In this document: positions 6,597-8,168 of the stretch, in pieces
Layout: each line of letters starts with the position of its first letter
Position numbering within the stretch: position 1 is the stretch's first letter
Assembly (NCBI GenBank): GCA_918797485.1
Contig: CAKKNE010000005.1
Location: 2,356,001 to 2,420,000, forward strand
Source of the DNA: Pelagomonas calceolata
Taxonomy: Eukaryota
DNA: 64,000 nt
Reading direction: 5' to 3'
Program-made: the position numbers and the translations under genes
The notes under the pieces: generated by a model
What the model saw: the letters and a program-made list of their open reading frames with translations, nothing else
Told to the model about the DNA's origin: nothing
The model's database searches: none

Positions 6597-7097
6597 CACG
6601 CGTCGCGCGAAAAAAATTCAAGAGCGAATTGCGCCATGGGCCACGCCACGAAAACGACGACGAGGGCGACAAAAAATACGCCCGCTACGTCTACGTTAAG
6701 CGAGGGCGACGGCTGCTGAGCTCGCCCTCCCCTAGATCCCCTGCTGGAGAGTGTAGTTAAGCGGCTTGGTACCGTCCCTGTTACTACTGCCACCGGTGGG
6801 TCTTGCTTGAACTTGAGGCCGCCCGCTTTCCTAGATGGCATTAGACCGCTATGAATTTGGGTTGAATCGCCCCGTGAGCAACAAATTAGCGCGTTGCGCG
6901 AGAGTCCGAGCAGGGCTCGACTCGAGTGCCAAATCGGGTTTTACGAGATCTCTATCGTAGTATCGACGCTATCGACGCGCAAGGAGCCCGAGGATACCGG
7001 GGGGACTAGTAAACGGATAAATCTACGCCGGCCTTAGACCTTGGTACCAAACCCACCACACAGATGTGGGAGGCGCCGGCGCGTAAAGGAAGGAGCT

Positions 7098-7181
7098 CTA
7101 CTTCTTGCCCTTCTTGCCCTTCTTCTTCTTCTTGCCCGAGCCCGAGTCCTGGGACCCCTTCCGCTTCTTCTCGCTCGACTT

Positions 7182-7212
<31 letters not shown>

Positions 7213-8119
7213 TCCTCGCTCGAGTCGTCGTCGCTGTCGTCGTCGTCGGCCGCGCCGCCGAAGTTGAAGAACGACGGCTGGCCACCGCCCATGTCCTCGT
7301 CATCATCATCGTCGTCCGAATCGTCATCGTCGTCGCCGCCCGGAACCTCCCCGAACTCGTCGTCGTCCTCGTCATCATCCGAATCGTCGTCGTCGCCGAA
7401 CCCGTCGTACGTCTCCTCGAGGACCTCGTAGCCCGTGATGTGCACCTTCGCGCTGCCTCCGGTAACACTGAATTTGACGGTCTCGTTGCCCGTGCCGATC
7501 AACAAGTCGATCTGCGCGTGGTCCGTGACGCCCGGTCGCAAGACGCAGAGCGCGAACTTCGGGCCTGTGCGTTGTACCGTCAACCCACAACTCCGACGGG
7601 ACTCGAACCCGCAACCCCCAGATTCGAAGTCTGATACGCTATCCATTGCGCCACGGAGTTTGGACGCGGGGCGCGGCACCGTCGTCGGCCGCCGCGTACA
7701 CCACATAGGTCTCGCCCTTCTTGGCCTTGGCGTCCGCGAAGGAGACCATCGTGAGCTGGAGGTTGAGGTCGCCGTCCTGGTCCGCCTCGTAGGTGTGGGT
7801 CTCGCCTGCGGTCGCGGCGGCGGCGTCAGGGCTTGTGTGTTGCCCACGGGCGCGGCGGCGGGTCGACGGCGCGCGCGAGGGTTTCATGCGTAAAGCGGCA
7901 GTGCGGGCGGCGGCGCCGCAGCGGCGCGCATGCGGCGCGCACGCTCGCCGGCTCTTGCGCGCCCGACGCGCGCCTCCTTGCCATTAGGTGCAGCGGGAGA
8001 AAGTGTCAGCGAGGCGGCGTCGCAGCGCGTCAAGAGCCATGAAACGGATCGTACTGATGCAGGACGCTGCGGCGCGGACCACTGTGGATTTCACAGCCCC
8101 ATAGCTGTGTGACCGCCAT
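7098..8119 (-). CDS. Nucleoplasmin-like (NPL/HD-tuin-type) histone chaperone, 3 exons (8080-8119, 7680-7805, 7098-7564)
   Basis: GT-AG splicing gives MAVTQLWGCEIHSGETHTYE...AADDGPKFALCVLRPG...VHITGY, then an acidic D/E tract and a basic K-rich tail. Confidence 0.85.
7588..7660 (-). tRNA. trnR-TCG: tRNA-Arg(TCG), located inside intron 2 of the nucleoplasmin-like gene
   Basis: 73-nt cloverleaf AACTCCG TG GCGC AATGGATA GCGT A TCAGA CTTCGAA TCTGG GGGTT GCGGG TTCGAGT CCCGT CGGAGTT G; all four stems pair; intact A and B boxes. Confidence 0.95.
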
Positions 8120-8168
8120 GATTGCAGAGCTGTTTAGGACTCTCTCGCCGCCACTAATCCCGGCGTGG

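What the first reader, a model, noticed from the sequence alone, without database searches (positions are those of the whole stretch)
7565..7679. A spliceosomal intron that is essentially a tRNA gene, with no Pol III terminator
Seen: intron 2 (GT at 7679, AG at 7565, 115 nt) of the nucleoplasmin-like gene contains a full tRNA-Arg(TCG) on the same strand, with only 19 nt of 5' flank and 23 nt of 3' flank, the latter holding the branch-point-like TTGAC and the acceptor. No run of four or more T follows the tRNA; the first on that strand is about 900 nt downstream (6671-6676). Known: nuclear tRNAs are normally Pol III units ending in an oligo-dT tract, whereas snoRNAs and mirtrons are released from introns. 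Inference: this tRNA may be matured from the excised Pol II intron by RNase P/Z, coupling tRNA supply to host-gene expression, or tRNA processing may compete with splicing.
Basis: partly seen in the sequence, partly recalled or inferred. Interest (0 to 1): 0.8.

Follow-up and report, generated by a model that had tools for sequence, protein, structure and literature searches.

The report
Algal tRNAs hosted in spliced introns
In this marine alga an intact arginine tRNA gene fills most of a spliced-out intron, and nearly all copies sampled from its lineage sit the same way in introns of about 20 host genes without the usual stop signal, so these tRNAs are likely cut out of messenger-RNA precursors rather than made by the polymerase that normally transcribes tRNA genes.

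Summary
Observation confirmed. The 115-nt intron 7565-7679 is spliced (310 and 108 junction reads, none in a DNA run). It holds an intact sense tRNA-Arg(UCG) with no T-run for about 910 nt. It is not a one-off. Among 64 metagenome loci of the same high-GC, probably pelagophyte, lineage, 58 of the 59 with enough upstream DNA place this tRNA just behind a same-strand splice donor: 23 distinct sites in 20 host genes (cyclophilins, tubulin, histone H2A, ClpP and others), often as arrays of 2-7 tRNAs. None of 49 distinct copies has T>=5 within 25 nt, against 30 of 43 in other organisms from the same scan. The region where TFIIIB would bind is GC-rich coding exon. No TFIIIC subunit is annotated in the 88% of a published pelagophyte proteome table that I could search, whereas Pol III and TFIIIB are. 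Best reading (0.65): snoRNA-style release from Pol II introns by RNase P and RNase Z. Not shown: mature tRNA from this locus, which polymerase makes it, or the layout of isotypes I did not sample. My searches found no report of such a system.

The parts
7565..7679 (-). Spliceosomal intron 2 of the nucleoplasmin-like gene (115 nt, GT..AG, phase 1)
   Evidence: Junction reads 310 and 108, absent from DNA run X3; spliced frame
7661..7679 (-). 5' splice site and 19-nt leader, with the extended donor motif (GTRCCGCG..CGCGTCC type) that also starts the tRNA-free intron 1
7588..7660 (-). tRNA-Arg(UCG), 73 nt, no encoded CCA, A and B boxes intact
   Evidence: ARAGORN; Rfam; 73/73 identical in 4 and 72/73 in 1 of 5 orthologous introns
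7579..7583 (-). Predicted branch site TTGAC, branch A at 7580, only 7 nt after the tRNA 3' end
   Evidence: Sequence; a GAC motif is kept in 5 of 5 orthologues; not mapped experimentally
7574..7579 (-). Six bases predicted to pair with intron nt 1-6, leaving the branch A bulged
   Evidence: MFE fold (z -1.68, weak alone); pairing across introns
7565..7587 (-). 23-nt 3' flank with the acceptor CAG; no T>=4
7680..7805 (-). Exon 2 of the host; supplies the tRNA's -50..-20 region (12.5% A+T at -35..-20)
7098..7564 (-). Exon 3 coding part: C-terminal half of the NPL domain, acidic tract, lysine-rich tail, stop
   Evidence: Pfam PF17800 E 4.6e-9
7806..8079 (-). Intron 1 (274 nt, no tRNA, no Rfam hit)
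   Evidence: 353+2 and 109 junction reads
8080..8136 (-). Exon 1 (ATG at 8119; many read ends at 8136, probable transcript start)
   Evidence: table 6; N-terminus of P0009
6671..6676 (-). First T>=4 run downstream of the tRNA, about 910 nt away and beyond the host gene

Best explanation
The tRNA-Arg(UCG) gene lies in sense inside a spliced intron and is likely made from the host's Pol II transcript, being cut out of the intron by RNase P and RNase Z the way intronic snoRNAs are released; this is likely the standard source of at least the Arg-UCG, Arg-UCU, Ala-UGC, Ser-UGA, Leu-UAG, Leu-UAA and Trp-CCA tRNAs in this lineage. Shown: the intron is spliced; the tRNA is intact and conserved; the same layout recurs in about 20 host genes, singly or as arrays with short spacers; Pol III flank signals are missing; poly(A)-selected reads run through several tRNAs on the host strand. 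Inferred: Pol II is the source; release happens from the lariat (19-nt leader, 7-nt trailer before the branch A) or the debranched intron; CCA is added afterwards; tRNA output follows host-gene transcription; weakening or loss of TFIIIC is the reason for the arrangement.
For: (1) Splicing. (2) Of 64 loci with this lineage's acceptor stem, 55 have a same-strand donor motif upstream by regex and 3 more by spliced reading frame; 5 lack upstream DNA; 1 (L090, half a tRNA in 48% GC DNA) has none. Regex background in the window is 19-27% per 140 nt, or 3% per 70 nt for GT donors. (3) Removing the GT..AG segment restores contiguous Pfam positions: Pro_isomerase 1-33, 36-59, 70-105, 107-158; CLP_protease 65-144 then 146-181; DJ-1 1-69 then 73-145; CSD 12-23 then 24-64; Tubulin_C 60-100 then 105-125; DUF3611 67-134 then 143-173 (27 of the 42 exon pieces had some hit at E<=0.05). 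(4) All 61 Rfam tRNA hits in 12 array loci lie on the host strand; no antisense signature in any locus. C. elegans intronic tRNAs are only 56% sense (PMC4999229, passages). (5) T>=5 within 25 nt: 0 of 49 distinct copies versus 30 of 43 in other organisms (Fisher p 2e-14); T>=4 between the last tRNA and the acceptor in 2 of 30 complete introns. (6) The TFIIIB zone is GC-rich exon. (7) A second tRNA intron (Trp, ABC-F/EF3-like host) is spliced: 138 and 32 reads, while DNA run X1 keeps the intron start. (8) Stranded poly(A) reads over the tRNA: depth 248-425 on the host-sense side, 0 antisense; reads span tRNA-tRNA joints (72+43 Trp-Trp, 29+11 Arg-Arg). (9) Proteome table of Pelagomonas calceolata (PMC9481584 supplement, 14,639 rows held of 16,667 genes): Pol III subunits, Brf1, Bdp1, Maf1, La, SNAP43, RNase P subunits, PRORP and RNase Z are annotated; TFIIIC terms and accessions give 0 hits. 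(10) Engineered intronic tRNA-gRNA arrays are processed from Pol II introns (PMC6912757, passages).
Against: No mature or CCA-added tRNA, no 5' or 3' cleavage product and no polymerase assignment was seen; the copies are identical, so reads cannot be given to this locus. A and B boxes are intact. The sense bias may be inherited: intron ends are alike across hosts and intron positions shift between close relatives, so the 23 sites are not 23 independent trials. T-less tRNA genes presumed to be Pol III units exist in Chlamydomonas and Physcomitrella (PMC3531208, passages). Human intronic nimtRNAs are not processed from Pol II introns (PMC7722341 section 7). The TFIIIC blank comes from an annotation table that is cut, for an organism used as a proxy, and TFIIIA and SNAP50 were not found in it either, so divergence can explain it. 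Some metagenome contigs look chimeric at the repeated tRNA (L070, L076, L108, L109).
Confidence: 0.65

Rival explanations
1. The intronic tRNAs are ordinary Pol III units run from their internal A and B boxes. They terminate late or without oligo-dT and are trimmed by RNase Z; introns of active genes just give open chromatin, as proposed for C. elegans.
For: Intact A and B boxes. Pol III, TFIIIB, Maf1 and La are annotated in a pelagophyte. Polycistronic T-less tRNA genes in Chlamydomonas. Host-promoter licensing of Pol III intronic tRNAs in C. elegans.
Against: No TATA or AT-rich upstream region and no T-run. No antisense or intergenic full-length copy among the testable loci. No TFIIIC annotated. 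Leu and Ser tRNAs in the arrays carry inserts in the D and T loops, which PMC3978253 section 5 links to TFIIIC-independent transcription in C. merolae, where TATA and T-stretch are kept; both are missing here.
Confidence: 0.22
2. The cloverleafs are passengers or structural splicing aids in mobile introns (nimtRNA-like or introner cargo), and the working tRNAs come from other loci.
For: Intron positions differ between close relatives. Arrays contain decayed remnants and a truncated tRNA-like element. nimtRNAs enhance splicing without being processed. P. calceolata has 956 putative introners.
Against: The tRNA is 73/73 or 72/73 conserved in 5 orthologous introns while flanks and third codon positions diverge (36 of the 73 positions were fixed by the search pattern). 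Seven anticodons occur, including Trp-CCA and Arg-UCU, which the cell cannot do without. No alternative free-standing copy was sampled.
Confidence: 0.1
3. Assembly or annotation artefact: the tRNA was joined into the gene through a repeat.
For: Some metagenome contigs do look chimeric at the identical tRNA.
Against: RNA reads skip exactly these 115 nt with GT..AG ends, DNA contigs of X3 join exon 3 to the flank and tRNA, and 5 independent orthologous loci have the same layout with diverged flanks.
Confidence: 0.01

Closest known systems
Intron-encoded snoRNAs (for example the 72 intronic snoRNAs of Ostreococcus tauri; PMC7671301, passages)
   Same: Sense non-coding RNA inside spliced introns of housekeeping genes, sometimes clustered, without own promoter signals.
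   Different: The cargo here is standard cytosolic tRNA, which would need RNase P/Z and CCA addition instead of exonucleolytic trimming under snoRNP proteins; release is not shown here.
Pol II-transcribed tRNA-Sec of Trypanosoma brucei (PMC2943599, abstract and passages)
   Same: A nuclear tRNA made from a Pol II transcript; that paper raises intronic tRNAs as further candidates.
   Different: One special tRNA, between genes of a polycistron, lacking A/B boxes; here seven ordinary anticodons in cis-spliced introns with the boxes kept.
Intronic tRNA genes of Caenorhabditis (PMC4999229, passages)
   Same: tRNA genes in introns, pairing with host conserved, expression tied to the host promoter.
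   Different: Only 56% sense and Pol III-occupied; the authors call excision from pre-mRNA a theoretical possibility. Here all tested copies are sense, the intron is barely larger than the tRNA, and T-runs are absent.
Polycistronic T-less tRNA clusters of Chlamydomonas reinhardtii (seen only as summarised in PMC3531208; the original paper was not held)
   Same: Short-spacer tRNA arrays without poly-T after each gene.
   Different: Described as polycistronic tRNA units, not as residents of spliced introns, in the passage I saw.
TFIIIC-independent tRNA genes of Cyanidioschyzon merolae (PMC3978253 section 5)
   Same: No TFC1/TFC3 found; tRNAs with introns that interrupt the A and B boxes.
   Different: C. 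merolae keeps upstream TATA and downstream T-stretch, so it stays with Pol III; both signals are missing here.
Engineered intronic polycistronic tRNA-gRNA (inPTG; review PMC6912757, passages)
   Same: tRNA units processed by RNase P/Z from a Pol II intron without blocking splicing.
   Different: Artificial; this would be a natural counterpart.
Introner elements of pelagophytes (bioRxiv 2022.06.06.494994 passages; PMC9481584 supplement)
   Same: Recently gained introns, presence/absence between relatives, complementary ends.
   Different: No target-site addition at the one empty site tested; these introns carry intact tRNAs; no tRNA is mentioned in those texts.

Membership tests
tRNA gene (Rfam RF00005) | Full cloverleaf above the gathering score, with anticodon | tested here: met
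   63.8 bits versus 29; model 1-71; anticodon TCG
tRNA gene (Rfam RF00005) | Gives mature, charged tRNA | not testable with these tools
   Only poly(A) libraries were laid; copies are identical
Canonical Pol III type-2 tRNA unit | Internal A and B boxes | tested here: met
   Visible in the alignment; they are also structural parts of any tRNA
Canonical Pol III type-2 tRNA unit | Oligo-dT terminator within about 25 nt | tested here: not met
   First T>=4 about 910 nt away; 0 of 49 lineage copies with T>=5
Canonical Pol III type-2 tRNA unit | AT-rich or TATA-like TFIIIB region upstream | tested here: not met
   12.5% A+T at -35..-20, which is coding exon
Canonical Pol III type-2 tRNA unit | TFIIIC encoded in the genome | tested here: inconclusive
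   0 hits in 14,639 of 16,667 rows of a proxy pelagophyte annotation; table cut; TFIIIA and SNAP50 also unseen
Canonical Pol III type-2 tRNA unit | Pol III occupancy | not testable with these tools
   Needs ChIP or inhibitor data
Intron-hosted non-coding RNA (snoRNA-type hosting) | Inside a spliced Pol II intron | tested here: met
Intron-hosted non-coding RNA (snoRNA-type hosting) | Always sense to the host | tested here: met
   58 of 59 testable loci behind a same-strand donor; 61 of 61 Rfam hits on the host strand
Intron-hosted non-coding RNA (snoRNA-type hosting) | Hosts are housekeeping genes | tested here: met
   Cyclophilins, tubulin, H2A, ClpP, L24e, ABC-F, TPT, cold-shock domain; several hosts unnamed
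Intron-hosted non-coding RNA (snoRNA-type hosting) | Released from the excised intron; depends on host transcription | not testable with these tools
   No small-RNA or lariat data
Introner element | Presence/absence at orthologous sites | tested here: met
   EF3-like introns b and c reciprocal; NPL intron at another site in P0013/P0022/P0023
Introner element | Terminal inverted repeats | tested here: inconclusive
   Donor nt 1-6 pair with the bases after the branch A, 5.0 of 6 versus 4.5 permuted; duplex z below -2 in only 11 of 30
Introner element | Target-site duplication | tested here: not met
   The empty allele of EF3-like intron b joins exactly, no letters between; one site only
nimtRNA (splicing-enhancer tRNA lookalikes) | Mitochondrial origin | not tested
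   No organelle genome was compared
nimtRNA (splicing-enhancer tRNA lookalikes) | Sequence drift from the functional tRNA | tested here: not met
   73/73 or 72/73 identity across 5 orthologues

The most novel reading that the evidence does not exclude
A globally abundant algal lineage has lost TFIIIC-dependent tRNA transcription and makes most or all of its cytosolic tRNAs from Pol II introns of housekeeping genes, and these tRNA-carrying introns are copied as whole units to new positions within and between genes.
Probability: 0.33. Interest if true: 0.93.

Novelty: new variant of a known kind. Interest (0 to 1): 0.8.

Why it matters
Nuclear tRNAs are taught as Pol III products; the tested exception I found in print is trypanosome tRNA-Sec, and excision of tRNA from spliceosomal introns is left as an open possibility in the papers read. 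This lineage offers a compact natural test: a 115-nt intron, 63% of it tRNA, in a culturable alga with public RNA data. If true, tRNA supply is tied to transcription of tubulin, histone, cyclophilin and ribosome-related genes, it gives a reason why an intron-poor genome keeps these introns, and it predicts a eukaryote whose tRNA genes run without TFIIIC, TATA box or terminator. It also offers natural designs for intronic tRNA-guide cassettes.

Tried and rejected
No whole genome is held and the metagenome records cannot be searched by handle, so no genome-wide tRNA count was possible. Viral collection: no relative of the host protein; the tRNA pattern hit one giant-virus tRNA cluster, which shares only the conserved tRNA core and was not pursued; the donor motif hit 5 contigs, none with a tRNA. 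The 430 and 93 reads across EF3-like intron b were first taken as splicing and then rejected, because the joined form also stands in DNA run X1. The 202-aa ORF 7098-7706 that reads through the tRNA, and database proteins of that kind (P0003-P0005, P0008, P0011), are unspliced gene-caller products. Folding alone is weak (z -1.68 and -0.66). Automatic acceptor calling failed on arrays and frame choice by ORF length failed in this GC-rich DNA; anchors were set by eye and frames by GC3. ARAGORN mislabels the array tRNAs that have loop inserts. Intron retention at this locus could not be read from the 41-nt depth bins. The protein atlas did not complete. Pair counting on alignment A1 was not obtained; a script gave the end-helix test instead. 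Earlier-finding look-ups gave nothing on this genome or its relatives and one unrelated Giardia case. Ten paper searches found no report of systematic intronic tRNAs in algae; 'tRNA' does not occur in the main text of PMC9481584 or bioRxiv 2024.10.30.620910, and 'intronic' does not occur in PMC13578239 or PMC13437025. bioRxiv supplements, one picture-only supplement of PMC9481584 and subscription papers were not seen.

Full report
1. The observation. The window holds one tRNA, tRNA-Arg(TCG) at 7588-7660 on the minus strand (ARAGORN; Rfam 63.8 bits). It lies in a 115-nt GT..AG segment, 7679 to 7565, with 19 nt before and 23 nt after it; the first T>=4 run downstream is at 6671-6676. Stranded poly(A) reads skip exactly this segment: 310 reads in X21 and 108 in X22 (one sample), one contig in X7 (another study); DNA run X3 has no such joint and keeps the flank. 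The gene has three exons (ATG 8119; intron 1 7806-8079), encodes a protein of about 210 aa with an NPL domain, and transcript-derived database proteins carry the spliced junction. The organism is probably a pelagophyte: the only hit with a taxon name for a neighbouring protein is a Pelagophyceae sp. at 51% identity, and the window's 63% GC equals the value published for Pelagomonas calceolata. This placement is an inference.

2. Conservation. Five metagenome loci hold the orthologous intron (L007, L047, L049, L082, L111). The tRNA is 73/73 identical in four and 72/73 in one, while the 5' flank matches at 13-16 of 21-22 columns, the 3' flank at 15-20 of 23-28, and 5-10 of 49 third codon positions in exon 3 differ (24 in L047, which probably has an indel). 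The search pattern fixed 36 of the 73 tRNA positions and loci without the tRNA could not be found this way.

3. It is a system, not a single case. They split by acceptor stem into the window's lineage (mostly 60-68% GC) and other organisms. Of 64 lineage loci, 55 have a same-strand splice-donor motif upstream of the tRNA or its array by regex, 3 more by the spliced frame, 5 lack upstream DNA, and 1 (L090, half a tRNA in 48% GC DNA) has none. By my count these are 23 distinct donor sites in 20 host genes. Cutting out the GT..AG segments restores known proteins with contiguous Pfam positions for cyclophilin, ClpP, DJ-1, cold-shock domain, tubulin and DUF3611; H2A, TPT, pterin-binding, L24e and ABC domains hit on one side or on separate domains; 15 of 42 exon pieces had no hit. 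One cyclophilin gene has tRNAs in three introns (L019, L041, L050, L071). Arrays hold up to seven tRNAs with spacers often under 20 nt; all 61 Rfam hits in 12 array loci are on the host strand. Anticodons seen: Arg-UCG, Arg-UCU, Ala-UGC, Ser-UGA, Leu-UAG, Leu-UAA, Trp-CCA. Loose read ends from the window organism's own DNA runs show donor-like or branch-like motifs beside other tRNA copies (read by eye). Some contigs look chimeric at the repeated tRNA (L070, L076, L108, L109), which affects pairing of flanks but not each flank's link to a tRNA.

4. Pol III signals. T>=5 within 25 nt: 0 of 69 lineage copies (0 of 49 distinct) against 38 of 51 (30 of 43 distinct) in other organisms; T>=4: 4 of 49 against 32 of 43, and 17 of 21 among the others with GC of 50% or more; 10 rows were dropped for short flanks or a partial tRNA. 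In 30 complete introns a T>=4 lies between the last tRNA and the acceptor in 2; donor-to-first-tRNA distance is 19-69 nt. For the window tRNA the -35..-20 region is coding exon with 12.5% A+T. In the searchable 14,639 of 16,667 rows of the P. calceolata annotation (supplement of PMC9481584), Pol III subunits, Brf1, Bdp1, Maf1, La, SNAP43, RNase P subunits, PRORP and RNase Z are present, and no TFIIIC name, Pfam or KO term is. TFIIIA and SNAP50 were not found either, the table is cut, and the species is a proxy, so this is a lead. C. merolae also lacks TFC1 and TFC3 but keeps TATA and T-stretch.

5. RNA evidence beyond this intron. Laying reads on L004 showed a second tRNA intron (Trp-CCA, about 211 nt) spliced in 138 and 32 reads, with the intron start present in DNA run X1. 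The 409-nt array intron of the same gene gave 430 and 93 joined reads, but the joined form also stands in X1, so that strain lacks the intron; these reads are not evidence of splicing. Poly(A) reads cross tRNA-tRNA joints (Trp-Trp 72 and 43; Arg-Arg 29 and 11), always on the host-sense side, and depth over the window tRNA is 248-425 sense and 0 antisense, mostly from paralogues. This shows multi-tRNA precursors in poly(A)-selected RNA. It fits retained Pol II introns, but oligoadenylated Pol III read-through products are not excluded. No pile-up of read ends at tRNA boundaries was listed in either call.

6. Mechanism. Most likely (0.65) Pol II transcribes the host, the spliceosome removes the intron, and RNase P and Z release the tRNA from the lariat or debranched intron; in the window the lariat loop would be about 100 nt, 73 of them tRNA. 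Splicing, layout, conservation and missing flank signals are shown; polymerase, release and coupling to host expression are inferred. The Pol III rival keeps 0.22 because A and B boxes are intact, T-less tRNA genes are known, and the sense bias may be inherited by copying of whole introns. That copying has some support: reciprocal presence/absence of two similar array introns 405 nt apart in one gene, an apparently relocated tRNA intron in the NPL gene of a sister species (protein only), and complementary intron ends (5.0 of 6 pairs against 4.5 permuted, p 0.0002 over 30 introns, 0.008 with one per host site, rows not independent; a looser duplex test gave z below -2 in only 11 of 30). No target-site addition was seen at the one empty site tested.

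7. What is known. Papers seen: PMC4999229 (passages): C. elegans intronic tRNAs 56% sense, excision called theoretical. PMC2943599 (abstract, passages): Pol II tRNA-Sec in trypanosomes; intronic tRNAs raised as candidates. PMC7722341 (abstract, section 7): nimtRNAs not processed. PMC3531208 (passages): T-less tRNA genes in Chlamydomonas and moss. PMC3978253 (passages, section 5). PMC13578239 (outline, passages) and PMC13437025 (passages): 2026 surveys of tRNA genes in photosynthetic eukaryotes, stating Pol III transcription, with no 'intronic' in the text. PMC9481584 (passages, supplements 1-4 by search), bioRxiv 2024.10.30.620910, 2022.06.06.494994 and 2025.12.01.691491 (passages; supplements closed): no 'tRNA' in the main texts. 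PMC6912757 and PMC7671301 (passages). Ten searches found no description of a lineage-wide intronic tRNA system; subscription papers, including the Chlamydomonas tRNA paper, were not seen.

8. Verdict. Real, spliced, conserved and systematic in its lineage. It works like snoRNA-type intron hosting, fails two defining tests of a canonical Pol III tRNA unit, and awaits direct proof of polymerase and release. New variant of a known kind; interest 0.8.

Noticed in passing
L004 (EF3-like introns at 989-1397 and the empty site near 585), L025, L062, run X1: Reciprocal presence/absence: L004 and L062 have a tRNA-array intron at site b; L004 lacks it at site c, 405 nt downstream, where L025 has a similar array; DNA run X1 lacks b and appears to have c.
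   Followed up: partly
Proteins P0013, P0022, P0023 (contigs up to 79 kb): In a sister species the NPL frame is continuous at the intron-2 site but ends in a translation that looks like donor motif plus tRNA-Arg start, suggesting the tRNA intron sits near the stop codon there. Read from protein only.
   Followed up: partly
L004, L009, L027, L029, L038, L040, L041, L050, L067, L075, L095, L100: A tRNA-like element with T arm and acceptor 3' strand but no D or anticodon arm recurs in the arrays, with compensatory changes in the T stem; a possible RNase P/Z processing signal or a decaying Trp-like gene.
   Followed up: partly
Arrays in L019, L029, L041, L058, L067, L075: Leu-UAG and some Leu-UAA genes carry inserts in the D loop and Ser-UGA an insert at the T loop, positions known from C. 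merolae; Leu-UAG has a T4 inside its anticodon arm.
   Followed up: partly
All arrays sampled: Six of the seven anticodons seen have U at the wobble position although the genome favours G/C-ending codons; tRNAs for C-ending codons never appeared next to them. May reflect the query.
   Followed up: no
window 7565-7679 and 29 other introns: Intron nt 1-6 tend to pair with the bases right after the branch A, with G.U, A-U and G-C variants at one pair among NPL orthologues.
   Followed up: partly
window 7806-8079: Intron 1 has segments conserved in L007 and L049 and a part (about 7848-7900) that resembles another transcribed locus; no Rfam hit; may host another small RNA.
   Followed up: no
L014, L043: Collapsed remnants of Ala and Leu tRNA genes next to intact tRNA-Arg suggest arrays shrink by internal deletion.
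   Followed up: no
L001:2970-3614: Giant-virus contig with an 8-gene tRNA cluster including a TTA (stop) anticodon call; its Arg-UCU shares the 36-nt core.
   Followed up: no
L003, L005, L011, L021, L042, L054, L063 and similar: Other organisms in the scan have dense clusters of 11-26 tRNA genes within 2-4 kb, with a T-run after the matched tRNA.
   Followed up: no
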